This document shows positions 56,301 to 62,300 of a stretch of 64,000 nucleotides of DNA, piece after piece. The position numbers were made by a program. This DNA is from Podarcis muralis. Lineage: Eukaryota. Location of the stretch: NCBI RefSeq assembly GCF_964188315.1, contig NC_135666.1:1674001-1738000 (forward strand), given 5' to 3'. The first letter of the stretch is position 1, and every line of letters starts with the position of its first letter.

Positions 56301-59300
56301 TAGCCTCCTTCTGGCTTAGTTTCTGAGTCCCCTTCAAAGGTAGCCGCGCATAGAGTGCCCCATCTGTAGTTAGAGGTGCATTGCTTCACCTCGAAGAAAA
56401 GCATGTGCTAATGGCCACTTCCCTTTGCCTCTCACAGGTGACAGAATGATGCTGCCAAGACTTCTTCTTCCATCTTTGCATGAAGGCAGAGGAGAAGCAG
56501 CAGCTCTGGAACCAGATCAGGTAGGGAGACGGAGCATAGCGGGCAAAGAGGCTCCTGCTCTTGACTTTGTAGGATATGAAACCCAAGAGCAGTCAAGTAC
56601 ACGATTCCTAGAGTGAACATGTTTACACATGGGGAGGAATGTTTGTCCAGCCAGCAGGTAAACTTCCTGTTTCCTTCTGAGCTGGGACAGACTTCCTCTG
56701 CATGTGACTAGAGGTGGGCGTGGCCTCACCTGTGCAGGTAATGACAAAAGCACAGGGCAGGGCAGCCATCTCTCTCTCTTTGACTACCTGCATCGAAGAA
56801 ACAACGTCTTCTTAGCCAAAGATGCTCTCTTGGCAAGAGAGGACAGAGGGATTGTCTCCTTATGAGATAGTTTCCAGGTATATGTTACTTTTCTAAGCTA
56901 AGTCTGCCTTCTGGGATCTGAATGTGAGCAAACTCTTTTTTATACTTTTGTAGAAGACTGTGTCATGTCTTATCTTTTATGAGGGAATAAGGGGAAAATA
57001 CCAGAACAGTTATTATAGAGGCTTTAGCGAGCCTGAGCAAAACGGGTCCTCTGCAAAGTTTAAAAATAAGGGAAATGTTAACACAAGTTAGATAAGGATA
57101 TAATCAGACAATATATCCTTTCCTGCATCCCTGAACAGACTTCTGTCAAAATTGTCCTTAACAAAGGCTGTAAAGGCTACTCCAGAAGGTTAAGTTCAGA
57201 GAATGATTAACAACCACCTCATGTTCACTAGCCTTCTGAATGATGCTAGTATTATCTATCAGTAGCTTCAGTTTTATATACCAATTTAACATTTAATACT
57301 AAGATAGGCTTCTCAACAGCTGACAAACCATAAAAAAGAGGGGCCAGAATTCACCTCATGAGTCCCATCAGTTACACTATAGGGCTTTCCCCCTCCTTCC
57401 CCTCCCTGTGACCCCCTGCACCCCTGAAGTTGGCTGTAGGACATGGCGAAGGTTTCCCCCTCCAGAACAGTAGACGGGGAGAGGAAAGGGGGGAATGTTG
57501 AGCAGAGAGAATGATCTGAAAAACACCAGGTGGAGTTCCACCCATTTACACAAAGATGAATACCCATCAATAAAATACACAATAAAACAATTCCATTAAG
57601 AGGTTAAAACGTACACCCATAATTAAAATGTACAGCCAAACAATCCCATTAAAACCATAGGGCAACAAACAGACACAAAACAACAAAACAATGTGTAGAA
57701 GATTATATTTCTGCTGTCTGAGAGCAAGACTTTTCTTCTTTTAGGGCCTAGTATGCTTTGAAGATATAGCTGTTCATTTCACAGACGAGGAGTGGGCATT
57801 GCTGGATCCTGACCAGAGAGCTCTGCATAAGGAAGTCATGGAGGAGAATGGTGGGATCATGAACTCTCTCAGTAAGGCTCCCTGTTGGATCATGATATCT
57901 CTTTCGGAATTTAAGATCCCTTGGGAAGAATCTGGGAGAGGAGGAGACTTAGTCAGTTGTGGGAAGGCAGGGCCTTCAGTCCCCACAACTGGCTCATAGG
58001 GGCCAGACCCAGAGGGAAGTATTGCTGTGCTCACTAGGCCTGACACTTCTGAGCAGACACTTCTGTTGCTTCTCATAAAGAGTTAACTTCACTTACTCCT
58101 TGTGATTTATTGCTGCCCCACTCCTGACACTCAGGTTCCCATACATATGTTCATTGATGCCTGTCAACAAAAGCAGTGAAGCCTGTTGTAAGGCCTTACT
58201 TTTAATTCCCTTCAGTTCTTCCTGTGTCCCAAGCATTAATTAGCAAAGTTCAATAACTGAGGGCTGCGTTTCTCCCTGAGGCTGTCATCCGTTTCTTTCT
58301 TTGTTGCAGATGGTGATGAATTGGAGATTAAGAACCAGGGAGACCATGACCATGTCTACACCATGGAGAAGCAATGTAAATATTCTGAGTGTAGAGAGAA
58401 CTTCAGTCAAAGCTCCCTCCGAAGAAATCCATTGGGGAAGAAATCCTATCAATGCCTGAAATGTGGGAAGAGCTTCACCTGGAAAAAAGATCTCACTTCC
58501 CATCAAAGAATTCATACAGGGGAGAAACCATATCAGTGCTTGGAATGTGGGAAGAGTTTCACCTGGAAGGAAAGTCTCACTTCCCATCAAATAATTCATA
58601 CAGGGAAGAAACCATATCAGTGCTTGGAATGTGGGAAGAGTTTCACCTGGAAGGAAAGTCTCACTTCCCATCAAATAATTCATACAGGGGAGAAACCATA
58701 TCAGTGTATGGAATGTGGGAAGAACTTCGCCTGGAAGAAAAGTTTCACAGCCCATCAACAGATTCATACAGGGGAGAAGCCATATCAGTGCATGGAATGT
58801 GGGAAGAGCTTTACCCAGAAAAAAAGTTTGAAAGCTCATCAAAGAATTCATACAGGGGAGAAACCATATCAGTGTTTGGAATGTGGACAGAGCTTCGCCT
58901 GGAAGAAAAGTTTAATAGACCATCAATGGATTCATACAGGGGAGAAGCCATATCAGTGTTTGGAATGTGGGAAGAGTTTCAGTTGGAAAGATGGTCTCAC
59001 TTCCCATGAAAGAATTCATACAGTGGAAAAATCATATACGTGTTTAGAATGTGGGAAGAGTTTCAGTCAGAAAAAGAGTCTCATGGCCCATCAAAGAATT
59101 CATACAGGGGAGAAACCATATCAGTGCTTGGAATGTGGGAAGAGCTTCAATCGGAAGTTCAATCTCACAGTCCATGAAAGAATTCATACAGGAGAGAAAC
59201 CATATCAATGCTTGGAATGTGGACAGAGCTTCAGTCAGAAGACCAGTCTCATAGGCCATCAAAGACGTCACAGTGGGGAGAAACCAAACAATGGCCGTAT

Positions 59301-62300
59301 ATGAATTTACTTTTCAGAGACTTTGATTAATATGTTCCACCTGGATCCTGAGTTCCACTTCTGAAGGCCTTCTGCCAGTTCCCTGATTGTGGGAAGTGAG
59401 GTTACATGGAACAAGGCTAGGGGCCTTTTTGATAGTGTCACCCGCCTTGTGGAACTCCCTCTTGTTAGATGTTAAGAAAATAAATAACTATCTGACTTTT
59501 AGATCAGGAAGTTTTTAATGTTTGTTAGTTTTACTGTGGTTTCACGAATTGTTAGAAATAATAATAATAATTTATAGGCTTTATAGGTCAAAACCAGCAC
59601 TTTGAATTGGGTGTGGATGCTAATTGGCAGCCAGTTCAGTTGGGCCAGGATCATTAATGCCCATCAAAATAGGTCGTAAGCACTGTAATAAGTAGAGGTC
59701 TGTCTACTCAGGACAGCCAGAACTGGGCAGAAGACTAAAGGGATTCCTTCCTTCTGATATCTTGGAGGCTTCCTGAGAGCCCAGGGGGAGGAGCCAGACT
59801 CAGCTGGCCCAGAAGCAGGAAGAGGCCATGCCATCCAAACTGGGAGCAGTGGGGGGTTGATTCCAGGCCGTGTCTAGCCCTCCTAGAAGGGAAGTGACCC
59901 CGCCAAATGTGATGGCAACTGAGGGATTTCTGTGAGATGAATCTCCCTGTTTGCTCCTGCCTTTTGGTGCTTTTGGTCAAGGAATTAATTTAGAACTGTG
60001 TTTGACTGAGTACAATTTTCACACCAGGCTGGGGGGGGGGTTGGGTTTCTAACCCTGGGGTTCTCAAGAGCTGCTCTCCCTCCTACCCCAGGAAAGAGCC
60101 CCCATCACCTTGGAGTGGCCCCATGTGCCCAGGCCATTAGACCATTTCAGGTCTCAGGTGTCCAGCATTGCCCTGGCAGCCTCGCCTTCAGTGAGGAAGA
60201 GCATGCCCAAATCCTCTTCCTGGGTCTCAGATAGCTTCACGGAGAGCTGATTTACACTCTGCTGCTAAAACATCCTGCCATTTGTTCCACTTTCAGGGTC
60301 AGGTAAGGAGAGATGCAATGCAGCGTAAGAGAGGGGAGATTCACAAATGCAGAACACTCAGAAACCGTGCCTAATACATTCTAAAAGGTTAATGGCAGTT
60401 AAAGTGGAGCATTATTGAGACGGCAAAGTCTGCTTCCTTGCTTCCCTCCCGGCCACCAGGAAGGCTCCATGAGGAACCCTCACCAGCCTTGGTTGCATTG
60501 GACCATAATTTTCCTCCCCTCCAGCCGTCTCCCAGCTTGTTTCCTCGCCCTAACCAGGTCTAACTCTGCGCTGCAGAAGAAGCCTTTTCTTTTCTCGGTC
60601 CTCCATTTTCCTTGTTTATTTATTGCATGAGTCAGGTTTCCGTTTTCACTTTTTGCGTATTTTTATGTCTGTCTACATGCAGCCAGTCCTCAGGGCACCC
60701 CCAGGGAGGAGGAACGGGGCCTTGAGGGCATGGGGCCAATGGAGCTCGTTCTGTCGGGGCTCACTTGTGGGGCGATGGCTGTGCCAGTGGGCAGGCTGCC
60801 CCACTTGGCTCTGTCGGAGTGGGCGCCAATAACTCAGGCTACACTGCTGTCCTGACCCAGAGGTCCCCTCCCCAAAGTGGATGAAAGGAAACTTACCTTG
60901 AACCTTTCCTGGCTTTGCAGAGAGGAAGGGGGCAAGACCCTCTGCTCCCTGACTTCAGGGTCCCCCCATGCATGGGCAAAACACATACACCCCAACATCT
61001 CACTGATTCAAATAGGGATCCTGTGCCCTAGCCACTCTAGGCAGCTTCCAACATATATGAAAACATTATAAAACGTTAAGCAAAAACGCTTCCCTATGCA
61101 GGATTTGGGGGTTGGATAGCTCCATCTCCCTCCGACACATCTCCAATGAAAATAGGGACGTCCTAAAGGAAAATGGCTCCTGCCAGCCTAGCAGTTCAAA
61201 AGCACGTCAAAGTGCAAGTAGATCAACTGGTACCGCTCTGGCGGGAAGGTAAACGGCGTTTCTGTGCGCTGCTCTGGTTCGCCAGATGCAGCTTAGTCCT
61301 GCTGGCCACGCGACCTGGAAGCTGTATGCTGGCTCCCTCGGCCAATAAAGCAAGATGAGCGCCGAAACCCCAGAGGTGGCCACGACTGGACCTAATGGTC
61401 AGGGGTCCCTTTACCTTTTAATGATCCCTTTTAAGGGAAAAGGGGGCATTCCAGGATAAAATCAGAAACCAGGACAGCTTCTCTAAATCAGGGACAACCC
61501 TGGAACATAGGGGCACTTGGAAGGTGTGTGAACAGGCCCTGCATGCACATACCCCTATTACCCTGGGACTCCNNNNNNNNNNNNNNNNNNNNNNNNNNNN
61601 NNNNNNNNNNNNNNNNNNNNNNNNNNNNNNNNNNNNNNNNNNNNNNNNNNNNNNNNNNNNNNNNNNNNNNNNNNNNNNNNNNNNNNNNNNNNNNNNNNNN
61701 NNNTCTCTTCCGCTGGAAAGCAGGAGTTCCAGAGGAGCCCAGTGCATCGCGCACAGCCAGAGATGCTTTATTTTGAGGGACCCTCCTGGCTGGCCTCTGA
61801 GCTGCTCCCTTCCTTGGTCAGGAACAGGAGGAGGAGCAAGCAGGGGAAAAGGCTCTGCAAGAAGTAGGCAACCCCATCCTAGAGGGAGAGGGTTGGAAGA
61901 GGAGTGTGTGTGTGTGGGGGAATCCTCTTTGGCATTAAGAATAGCCATAGGACAAAAGCTCTGGTGCAGAGCATTCATCTCTTCCATCTCTTCCCAGGCA
62001 GAAGGTTCTAGGGGTTGCGCCAACCTTGTGGGGTAGGACTATTGTGGAGCTGGAAAACCTTTGGTGAGCATCTGATACCTGGCTATGAAACCTCACCTGT
62101 CTCCTCAGGGGAACCTCCAAGGAAGCAAAATCCACCACCATCTTACCACCAGAAAGTTCTTCCTGGTAAGAAAATTCCTTCCAGTAGCACCTTAAGAGAG
62201 CAACTACGTTTGTTATTGGTATGAGCTTTCGTGTCTATCTGAAGAAGTCCATGCACATGAAAGCTCATACCAATAACAAACTTAGTTGCTCTCTAAGGTG

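What the first reader, a model, noticed from the sequence alone, without database searches (positions are those of the whole stretch)
58310..59304. Paralogs A and H share a scaffold but have largely replaced their DNA-binding arrays
Seen: SCAN, linker and KRAB exons, introns and flanks are near-identical between the arms, yet helix sequences differ almost throughout. A has RKES, RKFN, WKEG, RKES, RKFY...; H has WKKD, WKES, WKES, WKKS, QKKS, WKKS, WKDG, QKKS. Only the terminal QKTSLIGH finger and an RKFNLTVHE finger (position 2 in A, 9 in H) are clearly shared. Established: KRAB-ZNF arrays evolve by finger gain and loss and by selection at positions -1/2/3/6, often against TEs. Inference: a recent duplicate caught switching target specificity.
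Basis: partly seen in the sequence, partly recalled or inferred. Interest (0 to 1): 0.68.

Follow-up and report, generated by a model that had tools for sequence, protein, structure and literature searches.

The report
Lizard zinc-finger paralogs with reshuffled arrays
Two neighbouring copies of a lizard SCAN-KRAB zinc-finger gene are about 96% alike outside the finger array, but their arrays differ because whole fingers were duplicated, lost or swapped; this is a clear but ordinary case of a known way these genes evolve.

Summary
Region 58310-59304 is exactly the last exon of gene H (10 fingers). Its inverted paralog A (exon 8379-7121, minus strand) has 13 fingers. Both have intact SCAN, two linker, KRAB and finger exons with conserved GT-AG sites. 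Outside the arrays the arms differ at 242 of 5462 aligned bases, 4.4%. The arrays differ at 15-18% in register. Only A2/H9 (1 of 84 nt) and A13/H10 (5 of 84) pair robustly (199 and 200 of 200 bootstraps).

The unshared H fingers carry 31 synonymous differences from their most favourable A partners, against 5 expected. They are therefore not orthologous fingers rewritten at contact residues. In the two shared fingers no contact codon changed. The arrays were rebuilt finger by finger. A holds a perfect 336-bp four-finger tandem duplication (356 nt without a mismatch), and H2/H3 differ by 1 nt.

The closest protein found, from Podarcis lilfordi, has a third arrangement of the same finger types. 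The window is lizard, not human. This is a new example of a known process.

The parts
51586..60843 (+). H arm of the inverted duplication
   Evidence: Self-blastn blocks pair it with 13120-1253 on the other strand at 92.5-97.1% identity. MAFFT block identities are 94.3-97.6%.
1253..13120 (-). A arm of the inverted duplication
52980..53393 (+). H exon 1: start codon and SCAN domain
   Evidence: Pfam SCAN, E 9.8e-38. ATG start and GT donor. 97% identical to the same exon of P0077.
53564..53645 (+). H exon 2 (linker)
   Evidence: AG/GT junctions conserved in both arms. Matches P0077 residues 138-166. 91.5% identical to the A copy.
56438..56520 (+). H exon 3 (linker)
   Evidence: 90.4% identical to the A copy.
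57745..57871 (+). H exon 4: KRAB box
   Evidence: Pfam KRAB, E 4.8e-17. Junctions. 96.9% identical to the A copy.
58310..59304 (+). H exon 5 (the finding): pre-finger stretch, 10 C2H2 fingers, stop codon
   Evidence: Pfam zf-C2H2, E 1.5e-55. TRF reports period 84, 10.1 copies, 81% matches.
58453..59271 (+). H finger array, first Cys of H1 to last His of H10
   Evidence: Regex scan and finger table.
58537..58704 (+). H2 and H3: a single-finger tandem duplicate
   Evidence: They differ at 1 of 84 nt. The longest exact run at offset 84 is 83 nt.
59125..59292 (+). H9 (RKFN) and H10 (QKTS): the two fingers shared with A
   Evidence: 1 of 84 and 5 of 84 nt from A2 and A13. Bootstraps 199 and 200 of 200.
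11381..11797 (-). A exon 1: start codon and SCAN domain
   Evidence: Pfam SCAN, E 9e-38. Junctions. One codon longer than in H.
11129..11210 (-). A exon 2 (linker)
10542..10624 (-). A exon 3 (linker)
9765..9891 (-). A exon 4: KRAB box
   Evidence: Pfam KRAB, E 6e-17. Junctions.
7121..8379 (-). A exon 5: pre-finger stretch, 13 C2H2 fingers, stop codon
   Evidence: Pfam zf-C2H2, E 6e-77, 13 stretches. TRF reports period 84, 12.5 copies, 85% matches. It is 264 nt longer than H exon 5, that is three fingers plus four codons.
7308..7999 (-). Perfect tandem duplication of a four-finger (336-bp) unit inside the A array
   Evidence: Exact 356-nt run at offset 336. A4=A8, A5=A9 and A6=A10 with 0 differences; A7/A11 differ by 1.
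8057..8140 (-). A2 (RKFN), counterpart of H9
7133..7216 (-). A13 (QKTS, terminal), counterpart of H10
2206..6569 (+). Block present only in the A arm. It holds an uninterrupted 994-aa ORF with endonuclease and reverse-transcriptase domains (non-LTR retroelement). Described only.
   Evidence: The H arm runs straight through at 59886-59888. ORF. Pfam RVT_1 E 6.4e-34 and Exo_endo_phos E 5.7e-9.
8403..9335 (.). Block in A intron 4 that is absent from H
   Evidence: gap between blocks. 0 Pfam families for its 214-aa ORF.
53912..56195 (.). Block in H intron 2 that is absent from A. It includes a 90-bp satellite of 17.6 copies at 54295-55870.
   Evidence: GC 0.69.
56568..57137 (.). Block in H intron 3 that is absent from A

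Best explanation
A and H are the two arms of an inverted segmental duplication inside a lizard cluster of SCAN-KRAB-C2H2 genes. The arms are now about 4.4% diverged, and both copies are still open and spliceable.

Since the duplication the finger exon has been rebuilt in units of whole fingers, not by substitution at contact residues. The 84-bp repeats share well-conserved His/linker/Cys segments. These let the array misalign in register (unequal recombination or replication slippage), which duplicates and deletes whole fingers or blocks of fingers.

- A was rebuilt by repeated amplification of an RKES / RKF(N or Y) / WKEG block. The latest step is a perfect four-finger duplication.
- H lost the WKEG and RKFY types. 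It keeps, or acquired, a set of older WKKS/QKKS/WKDG-type fingers, and it duplicated one WKES finger.
- The result is two proteins with the same SCAN dimerisation and KRAB effector parts and different predicted DNA fingerprints.

Shown: the duplication, the intact exon structure, the unit-wise repeats, and the non-orthology of most fingers.

Inferred: the recombination mechanism, which array is more derived, and that binding specificity really differs.
For: 1. Collinear inverted arms with uniform low divergence. 242 of 5462 aligned bases differ. Non-array coding dS is 0.057 and dN 0.033. SCAN and KRAB have pN/pS of about 0.27.

2. All five exons of both copies have conserved ATG, AG and GT sites and a consistent phase. 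The model matches the annotated P. lilfordi protein P0077 exon by exon.

3. The length difference of exon 5 is 264 nt, that is 3 x 84 + 12.

4. Unit-wise repeats.
- A has an exact 356-nt run at offset 336.
- Older rounds in A: A4-A5 against A7-A12 differ at 3 of 168 nt, and A1-A3 against A4-A6 at 20 of 252.
- H2/H3 differ at 1 of 84.

5. The shared fingers sit at scaffold-level divergence: 6 of 168 nt, binomial p = 0.71 against the scaffold rate. Their contact codons are unchanged.

6. The unshared H fingers have pS of 0.35 against their most favourable A partners, against 0.057 expected. That is 31.2 synonymous differences against 5.1, P = 8e-15. Framework pS is 0.31-0.48 in positional or best-type pairings.

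7. Among 18 distinct internal fingers, the mean pairwise nt difference is 0.093 in the His/linker/Cys codons and 0.321 in the helix codons. This gives in-register homology.

8. The outgroup-like protein P0077.
- It is 97% identical to H and 95.6% to A in the SCAN exon.
- Amino-acid columns split as A-private 18, H-private 10 and P0077-private 9.
- It has a third arrangement: RKFN, QKTS, QKKD, RKFN, WKEG, RKFY, QKTS.
- Its WKEG and RKFY fingers are identical in protein to A3 and A5.

9. Whole-finger duplication and deletion is described as a common route of divergence between paralogs and orthologs. I saw this in passages of PMC2604467 and PMC3126818.
Against: 1. No lizard genome DNA could be searched. 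The history is polarised by a single protein outgroup, and which species the window comes from is unknown.

2. Fingers H4-H8 have no counterpart within 2 amino acids among 2003 fingers of 132 squamate SCAN-ZNF proteins. If they are ancestral, both A and the P0077 lineage lost them. Import from an unsampled paralog is just as possible.

3. Some selection on contact residues over deeper time is not excluded. Contact-codon dN/dS is 2.73 among the A finger types, 2.55 and 1.98 in the positional pairings, and 1.04-1.13 for the H fingers. These rest on only 2-3 synonymous sites per pair. H4/H6 show 8 non-synonymous to 1 synonymous change, which is not significant (p = 0.50).

4. Units of 84 nt resolve deeper finger groupings poorly: 25-104 of 200 bootstraps.

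5. The perfect 692-bp repeat cannot be checked against reads, and an N run lies 730 bp beyond the H arm.
Confidence: 0.68

Rival explanations
1. After a recent duplication the two arrays stayed collinear, and positive selection on positions -1, 2, 3 and 6 rewrote the helices.
For: - Differences are densest in the helix codons.
- Contact-codon dN/dS exceeds 1 in several pairings: 1.98-2.73.
- Such selection among recent paralogs is documented in mammals and other vertebrates (passages of PMC2604467).
Against: - Silent sites of the unshared fingers are 6 times more diverged than the scaffold: pS 0.35 against dS 0.057, P = 8e-15.
- The arrays differ in length by three fingers.
- The two true counterparts sit at positions 2 and 13 in A but 9 and 10 in H, so the arrays are not collinear.
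- 0 of 8 contact codons changed in those counterparts.
Confidence: 0.07
2. Cassette import. After the duplication, most of the H array (H1-H8) was overwritten by ectopic gene conversion or unequal exchange with another cluster member outside the window. The scaffold was left untouched.
For: - H4-H8 have no close counterpart in A, in arrays B or C of the window (at least 13 of 84 nt away), or in P0077.
- Their silent-site distance to the A fingers is old.
- The helix half of H2/H3 is closer to finger C3 than to any A finger: 1 against 3 mismatches in 42 nt.
- Short conversions among paralogs are reported in PMC2604467 (passage seen).
Against: - No donor was found. The highest identity is 71% among the 120 listed rows of the H1-H8 search and 75% among the 120 listed rows of the exon-5 search. 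Both lists are crowded by long poly-finger proteins, so this is weak evidence.
- Arrays B and C are too distant to be donors.
Confidence: 0.17
3. Old paralogs with a homogenised scaffold. A and H are ancient genes with long-separate arrays, and arm-to-arm gene conversion in the inverted repeat has kept the exons, introns and flanks alike.
For: - The inverted arrangement favours arm-to-arm conversion. This is general knowledge of palindromes, recalled and not from any call.
- Divergence is uneven: 2.5% in the distal flank against 7.4% in part of intron 3.
- One 295-bp identical run exceeds the simulated 95% limit of 122 bp. That simulation used a rate inflated by gap columns.
Against: - Divergence is fairly even at 3-7% over 5.4 kb, with no long zero-difference tracts apart from that one run.
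- Four arm-specific blocks totalling about 8.1 kb have not been erased.
- The terminal fingers inside the array are at scaffold-level divergence, and homologous sequence flanks the array on both sides.
Confidence: 0.06
4. Assembly artefact. The arrays, or the perfect 336-bp repeat, are mis-assembled tandem repeats, or the arms are two haplotypes joined wrongly.
For: - Tandem 84-bp repeats and a perfect 692-bp repeat are the kind of sequence that assemblers can get wrong.
- An N run (61573-61703) lies close to the outer end of the H arm.
Against: - The arms are inverted, 38 kb apart and 4.4% diverged, with different insertions. That does not look like two haplotypes.
- Both arrays keep an open frame and every Cys and His of all 23 fingers.
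- Most repeat units differ enough to anchor reads: 81-85% matches.
Confidence: 0.02

Closest known systems
Whole-finger gain and loss among recently duplicated poly-zinc-finger (KRAB-ZNF) paralogs of mammals: Emerson and Thomas 2009, PMC2604467, and Nowick et al. 2011, PMC3126818 (passages seen)
   Same: - Clustered segmental duplicates with conserved effector exons.
- Arrays that differ mainly in the number and order of 28-codon fingers.
- Duplication and deletion attributed to recombination within the array.
- Few changes at DNA-contacting residues in fingers that truly correspond.
   Different: - The host is a lizard and the gene architecture is SCAN + KRAB.
- The scale of turnover is large for a 4.4% scaffold divergence: at most 2 of 10 H fingers have a counterpart.
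- One step was caught with zero mismatches.
Lineage-specific expansion of SCAN-KRAB-ZNF genes in the lizard Anolis carolinensis: Liu et al. 2014, PMC3971581 (passages and Table 1 seen)
   Same: - SCAN-KRAB-ZNF architecture and clustered paralogs (240 SCAN-KRAB models reported for Anolis).
- The KRAB box lacks the central leucine of the mammalian MLE motif. Here it reads MEE in A, H and P0077.
   Different: - That paper, in the passages I saw, catalogues genes and fingerprints across species. It does not describe finger-level remodelling between two lizard paralogs.
- Its supplementary tables could not be opened.
P0077, 'zinc finger protein OZF-like' of Podarcis lilfordi (482 aa)
   Same: - Same five-exon layout.
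- SCAN exon 97% identical to H and 95.6% to A.
- Same pre-finger stretch and same terminal QKTS finger.
- WKEG and RKFY fingers identical in protein to A3 and A5.
   Different: - Seven fingers in a third order: RKFN, QKTS, QKKD, RKFN, WKEG, RKFY, QKTS.
- It has no RKES, WKES, WKKS, QKKS or WKDG finger.
- It has private changes against both A and H (9 columns), so it is not a simple ortholog of either.
PRDM9-type minisatellite-like finger arrays (recalled; PRDM9 is mentioned as an exception in a passage of PMC3126818)
   Same: Tandem 84-bp finger repeats with near-identical neighbours, which suggests ongoing change of array length.
   Different: - No PR/SET domain is present.
- No population data are available here.
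- Most units in A and H are 8-25 nt apart rather than near-identical.

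Membership tests
SCAN-KRAB-C2H2 zinc-finger gene | SCAN domain (Pfam PF02023) near the N-terminus | tested here: met
   E 9.8e-38 (H) and 9e-38 (A), covering 88-89 of 90 profile positions.
SCAN-KRAB-C2H2 zinc-finger gene | KRAB box (Pfam PF01352) on its own exon | tested here: met
   E 4.8e-17 (H) and 6e-17 (A), profile positions 1-41 of 42. The exon is 127 nt with AG/GT junctions.
SCAN-KRAB-C2H2 zinc-finger gene | Tandem C2H2 fingers of 28 codons joined by TGEKP-type linkers, all on one 3' exon | tested here: met
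   10 (H) and 13 (A) fingers, with all Cys and His present. Period 84.
SCAN-KRAB-C2H2 zinc-finger gene | Open reading frame through all exons, with canonical splice sites and consistent phase | tested here: met
   Exon lengths are 414+82+83+127+995 nt (H) and 417+82+83+127+1259 nt (A), both multiples of 3.
SCAN-KRAB-C2H2 zinc-finger gene | KRAB recruits the KAP1/TRIM28 co-repressor | not testable with these tools
   The KRAB reads MEE where mammals have MLE. Liu et al. say the function of lizard KRAB cannot be assumed (passage).
SCAN-KRAB-C2H2 zinc-finger gene | Transcribed and translated | not testable with these tools
   No expression data were at hand. Indirect support: pN/pS of about 0.27 in SCAN and KRAB between the copies.
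Recent segmental (inverted) duplicates | Collinear homology through non-coding sequence on both sides of the gene | tested here: met
   Five collinear blocks on opposite strands.
Recent segmental (inverted) duplicates | Silent coding divergence equal to intron and flank divergence | tested here: met
   dS 0.057 against intron and flank K2P of 0.025-0.074.
Array divergence by positive selection at contact residues | Corresponding fingers differ mainly at -1, 2, 3 and 6, with silent sites as close as the scaffold | tested here: not met
   Shared fingers: 0 of 8 contact codons changed. Unshared fingers: pS 0.35 against 0.057.
Array divergence by positive selection at contact residues | dN/dS above 1 at contact codons, statistically supported | tested here: inconclusive
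   Ratios are 1.0-2.7, but with 2-3 synonymous sites per pair and no secure finger orthology.
Array remodelling by in-register whole-finger duplication and deletion | Length differences in multiples of 84 bp | tested here: met
   264 nt = 3 x 84 + 12. The extra 12 nt lie in the pre-finger stretch.
Array remodelling by in-register whole-finger duplication and deletion | Neighbouring units or blocks far more alike than the gene copies are | tested here: met
   A 356-nt exact run at offset 336 in A; H2/H3 differ at 1 of 84. P = 1e-7 for the former at the scaffold rate.
Array remodelling by in-register whole-finger duplication and deletion | Conserved segments between units that can serve as homology for misalignment | tested here: met
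   Mean pairwise difference is 0.093 in the His/linker/Cys codons and 0.321 in the helix codons.
Array remodelling by in-register whole-finger duplication and deletion | Copy-number polymorphism of the array in the population | not testable with these tools
   No reads or second assembly were available.

The most novel reading that the evidence does not exclude
The finger exon of this lizard gene family behaves as an exchangeable, unstable cassette. H1-H8 would have been imported as a block from an unlinked or unsampled paralog onto an otherwise unchanged SCAN-KRAB scaffold. The A array would still be changing length today, with the perfect four-finger duplication possibly polymorphic. New DNA specificities would then arise by cassette swapping and minisatellite-like instability rather than by stepwise substitution.
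Probability: 0.2. Interest if true: 0.55.

Novelty: new member of a known kind. Interest (0 to 1): 0.3.

Why it matters
The pair is a clean natural example, in a reptile, of how a transcription-factor duplicate gets a new DNA fingerprint while keeping its partner-binding and effector parts. All the pieces lie within one 64-kb stretch:
- a scaffold clock (4.4% divergence);
- two anchoring fingers;
- three successive rounds of block duplication in A (7.9%, 1.8% and 0% diverged);
- an outgroup protein with a third arrangement.

It also carries a methodological warning. Comparing arrays position by position and reading the differences as selection at contact residues would be wrong here, because silent sites show that most fingers do not correspond.

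For the field at large it adds a case rather than a principle. Whole-finger turnover among paralogs is already described for mammals, and large SCAN-KRAB expansions are described for Anolis.

Tried and rejected
1. Position-by-position pairing of the arrays from either end. Rejected as an orthology map: only 1-3 of 10 pairs fall within 7 nt, and framework pS is 0.31-0.38.

2. Treating A3 (WKEG) and H2/H3 (WKES) as a third shared finger. Rejected: 69 of 200 bootstraps, and finger C3 of a distant paralog is equally close.

3. Arrays B (17310-18380) and C (39125-39691) as donors of the H fingers. Rejected: H4-H8 are at least 13 of 84 nt from any B or C finger.

4. Search for a donor or closer relative.
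- H exon 5: 7569 proteins at E <= 1e-20 among 8000 scored candidates, 120 listed, best identity 75% (P0077).
- H1-H8 against longer proteins: 7741 among 8000 scored, 120 listed, best identity 71%.
- Both lists are ranked by summed score and crowded by long poly-finger proteins, so a short close relative could be hidden.

5. SCAN-exon search: 894 proteins at E <= 1e-40 among 2567 candidates, 120 listed. Only P0077 reaches 97%; the next is 90%.

6. Signs of arm-to-arm conversion. One 295-bp and one 176-bp identical run exceed a simulated 95% limit of 122 bp. The simulation used a rate inflated by gap columns, so I take this as weak.

7. The repeat finder on the arrays only returned the 84-bp family in 300-nt pieces. 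The block structure came from my own offset scan.

8. The 647-bp direct-repeat pair at 25575-26221 and 32055-32701 as a coding provirus. 0 of 12 ORFs tested have a Pfam family, so this is left undetermined.

9. Literature. Four searches found no paper on finger-level remodelling in lacertid or other squamate SCAN-KRAB genes. One search returned 1 paper and one search's ten listed titles were all off-topic. Four searches of an open-access library do not show that nothing is in print.

10. In one search a variable-name slip overwrote the block labels with the K2P values. The rows are in script order, and repeats the measurement with labels.

Full report
**What the window is**

The window holds a cluster of SCAN-KRAB-C2H2 zinc-finger genes. 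A regex scan finds 42 fingers in four arrays:
- A at 7154-8224 on the minus strand, 13 fingers;
- B at 17310-18380, 12 fingers;
- C at 39125-39691, 7 fingers;
- H at 58453-59271, 10 fingers.

The best protein matches by identity are all from lizards. The SCAN exon of H is 97% identical to P0077, an annotated protein of Podarcis lilfordi, and the next best listed hit is 90%. I therefore take the window for a lacertid-like lizard and not for human, so the rule on human contigs did not come into play. The N run at 61573-61703 was left as it is.

**Gene models**

P0077 was laid on the window with tblastn, and the junctions were read in both arms. Each gene has five coding exons.
- H: 52980-53393 (SCAN), 53564-53645, 56438-56520, 57745-57871 (KRAB), 58310-59304 (fingers).
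- A, minus strand: 11797-11381, 11210-11129, 10624-10542, 9891-9765, 8379-7121.

Every ATG, AG and GT is conserved in both copies, and the exon lengths add up to whole codons. Pfam confirms SCAN, KRAB and zf-C2H2 in both copies.

All searches were made exon by exon. The joined coding sequence was never built or searched. This leaves open whether the exact full-length proteins are already in the protein sets.

**The observation**

The arms are inverted and collinear. Identity by compartment:

| Compartment | Identity |
|---|---|
| 5' flank | 95.4% |
| SCAN exon | 96.9% |
| Intron pieces | 93.0-97.1% |
| Linker exons | 91.5% and 90.4% |
| KRAB exon | 96.9% |
| Pre-finger part of exon 5 | 96.5% |
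| 3' flanks | 94.3% and 97.6% |

In all, 242 of 5462 aligned bases differ, 4.4%. So 'near-identical' is generous.

Four large blocks are present in one arm only:
- 2206-6569 in A, a non-LTR retroelement with an uninterrupted 994-aa endonuclease/RT ORF;
- 8403-9335 in A;
- 53912-56195 in H, which holds a 90-bp satellite;
- 56568-57137 in H.

The arrays differ at 125 of 840 nt when aligned from the 3' end and 149 of 840 from the 5' end. Even when each H finger takes its best A partner they differ at 97 of 840. All three are far above the scaffold rate (Fisher p from 3e-14 to 1e-37).

**Which fingers correspond**

- In the 84-nt finger matrix, H9 is 1 nt from A2 and H10 is 5 nt from A13.
- These two pairs have 199 and 200 of 200 bootstraps in a neighbour-joining tree of all 42 regular fingers plus one degenerate unit of array B.
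- Together they differ at 6 of 168 nt, which is indistinguishable from the scaffold (p = 0.71).
- None of their 8 contact codons has changed.
- The WKES fingers H2/H3 are 6-7 nt from the WKEG and RKES fingers of A. The grouping has only 69 of 200 bootstraps, and finger C3 of the much more distant gene C is 7 nt away. This is a slowly evolving generic finger type, not evidence of correspondence.
- H1 and H4-H8 are 10-15 nt from any A finger.

If the helices had been rewritten by selection in corresponding fingers, silent sites would still be as close as the scaffold, whose dS is 0.057 over the non-array coding sequence. They are not.
- I gave each of H1 and H4-H8 the A partner with the fewest synonymous differences. 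There are still 31.2 synonymous differences over 89.8 synonymous sites, where 5.1 are expected (P = 8e-15).
- Framework and linker codons alone give pS of 0.31-0.48 in positional or best-type pairings.
- The true counterparts sit at positions 2 and 13 in A but 9 and 10 in H.
- The exons differ in length by 264 nt, that is three fingers plus four codons.

The arrays are therefore not collinear. Most fingers of the two genes belong to different, older finger lineages.

**What did happen**

The arrays carry the marks of in-register duplication of whole fingers.
- In A, 356 nt are repeated exactly 336 nt further on (7308-7663 and 7644-7999). This is a four-finger tandem duplication without one mismatch (A4=A8, A5=A9, A6=A10; A7/A11 differ by 1 nt). 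At the scaffold's rate the chance of no difference is 1e-7, so this step is far younger than the gene duplication.
- Older rounds can also be read in A. A4-A5 against A7-A12 differ at 3 of 168 nt, and A1-A3 against A4-A6 at 20 of 252.
- So A is largely an amplified RKES / RKF(N or Y) / WKEG block, capped by the terminal QKTS finger.
- In H, H2 and H3 differ by 1 nt. H4 and H6 group together (185 of 200 bootstraps).
- Among 18 distinct internal fingers, the His/linker/Cys codons differ on average at 0.093 per site and the helix codons at 0.321. The conserved stretches between helices supply homology for misalignment in register.

Unequal recombination or replication slippage is the inferred mechanism. 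The sequence shows the products, not the process.

**Polarity**

P0077 behaves as an outgroup, or as a co-ortholog of both genes. At the amino-acid columns where A and H differ, it agrees with H in 18 and with A in 10. It has 9 private differences where A and H agree (indel columns counted).

Its seven fingers read RKFN, QKTS, QKKD, RKFN, WKEG, RKFY, QKTS.
- Its WKEG and RKFY fingers are identical in protein to A3 and A5.
- Its QKKD finger is 3 residues from H1.
- The RKFN-QKTS adjacency of H and the RKFY-QKTS adjacency of A both occur in it.

The three arrays thus look like different hands dealt from one small set of finger types. A is compositionally closer to the outgroup but heavily amplified. 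H has lost WKEG and RKFY and carries WKKS, QKKS and WKDG fingers.

Those fingers (H4-H8) have no counterpart within 2 residues among 2003 fingers of 132 squamate SCAN-ZNF proteins. The closest are WKKS fingers of a Rhineura protein, at 3-4 differences. Whether they are ancestral and were lost elsewhere, or were imported from an unsampled paralog, could not be settled. Two protein searches found nothing closer than 75% and 71% among their 120 listed rows each. Those lists are crowded by long poly-finger proteins, and no lizard DNA could be searched.

**State of the genes**

Both reading frames are open, and all 23 fingers keep their Cys and His. Between the copies, the SCAN and KRAB exons show pN/pS of about 0.27. 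The two short linker exons show pN at or above pS. This points to continued constraint on the effector parts of at least one copy, and probably both.

The KRAB box reads MEE where mammalian boxes have MLE. Liu et al. 2014 note the same for the lizard consensus and caution that KAP1 binding cannot be assumed (passage seen). Expression and binding could not be examined.

**Selection**

Contact-codon dN/dS is above 1 in several pairings: 2.73 among the A types, and 2.55 and 1.98 in the positional pairings. It is about 1 for the H fingers. These values rest on 2-3 synonymous sites per pair and on pairs that are not orthologous. H4 against H6 shows 8 non-synonymous to 1 synonymous change, which is not significant (p = 0.50).

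Diversifying or relaxed evolution of the helices over the deeper history of these finger types is therefore possible. It is not what separates A from H since their duplication.

**Comparison with what is known**

- Emerson and Thomas 2009 report positive selection at -1, 3 and 6 among recent paralogs. [quoted passage not shown]
- Nowick et al. 2011 call finger duplication and deletion a common path of divergence. They find more differences in finger number than in contact residues between orthologs (passages of PMC3126818).
- Liu et al. 2014 count 240 SCAN-KRAB models in Anolis and conclude that SCAN-ZNF genes expanded independently in reptiles (passages and Table 1 of PMC3971581).

The present pair is a member of this known kind, in a lacertid-like lizard. 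Four literature searches turned up no description of finger-level remodelling in squamate SCAN-KRAB genes. That is not proof that none exists, and the papers' supplementary tables were closed.

**Rivals**

- Cassette import into H (about 0.17). This is the main live alternative, and it is still whole-finger turnover.
- An old gene pair with a scaffold homogenised by arm-to-arm conversion (about 0.06). The even 3-7% divergence, the four unerased arm-specific blocks and the scaffold-level divergence of the terminal fingers speak against it.
The silent sites refute it for most fingers.
- An assembly artefact (about 0.02). It cannot be excluded without reads, but it does not fit two open, inverted, differently interrupted arms.

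**Verdict**

The most likely mechanism is remodelling of whole fingers by in-register duplication and loss after an inverted segmental duplication that is 4.4% old (confidence 0.68). The case is neat and instructive, but the process is known. Interest is 0.3, and the novelty class is a new member of a known kind.

Noticed in passing
window 2206-6569 (+): A block present only in the A arm. It is a non-LTR retroelement with an uninterrupted 994-aa ORF carrying AP-endonuclease and reverse-transcriptase domains. The H arm is continuous at the matching point, so it entered or was lost after the arms separated. Described only.
   Followed up: partly
window 44893-48616 (-): A second non-LTR retroelement. 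Separate ORFs carry a GDSL-esterase-like domain, an endonuclease domain and a reverse-transcriptase domain. The endonuclease and RT parts lie in different ORFs, so the second gene has at least one break, of a kind not determined. Described only.
   Followed up: partly
window 25575-26221 and 32055-32701: Two 647-bp direct repeats, 99.7% identical, lie 5.8 kb apart. The longest stop-free stretch between them is 131 aa, and 0 of 12 ORFs tested have a Pfam family. This could be an LTR-like pair around a non-coding or decayed interior, or a local duplication. Undetermined.
   Followed up: partly
window 54295-55870: A satellite of 90-bp units, 17.6 copies with 92% matches and GC about 0.69. It lies inside intron 2 of H and is absent from A.
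   Followed up: no
window 1-288 and 13016-13303: These are 99.65% identical in direct orientation. The second copy lies at the inner edge of the A arm, upstream of gene A. This may be the edge of a further, very young duplication that runs off the left end of the window, or a young repeat.
   Followed up: no
window 386-473 (+), 6607-6675 (-), 59788-59874 (+), 51408-51578 (-), 49939-50355 (+): Short fragments matching the start of the SCAN exon lie about 0.5 kb downstream of both A and H and elsewhere. A lone complete SCAN-like exon lies at 49939-50355 with no KRAB or finger exon after it. These are remnants of earlier rounds of duplication in the cluster.
   Followed up: no
window 14658-18380 (+) and 36320-39691 (+): Two further SCAN-KRAB-finger genes lie between the arms. 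B has SCAN at 14658-15071, KRAB at 16411-16536 and 12 fingers plus one degenerate unit. C has SCAN at 36320-36781, KRAB at 38021-38146 and 7 fingers. Their scaffolds are 72-88% like A and H.
   Followed up: partly
window 39293-39376 against 58537-58704: The helix-coding half of finger C3 (WKES) differs from that of H2/H3 at 1 of 42 nt, although genes C and H are otherwise about 72-83% alike. This is either a strongly conserved finger type or a short conversion tract.
   Followed up: partly
window 57745-57871 and 9765-9891: The KRAB box of A, H and P0077 reads MEE where the mammalian motif is MLE. This matches the remark of Liu et al. 2014 on the lizard consensus.
   Followed up: partly
window 61573-61703: A run of 131 N lies 730 bp beyond the outer end of the H arm. 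It was left untouched. It limits what can be said about where the H arm really ends.
   Followed up: no
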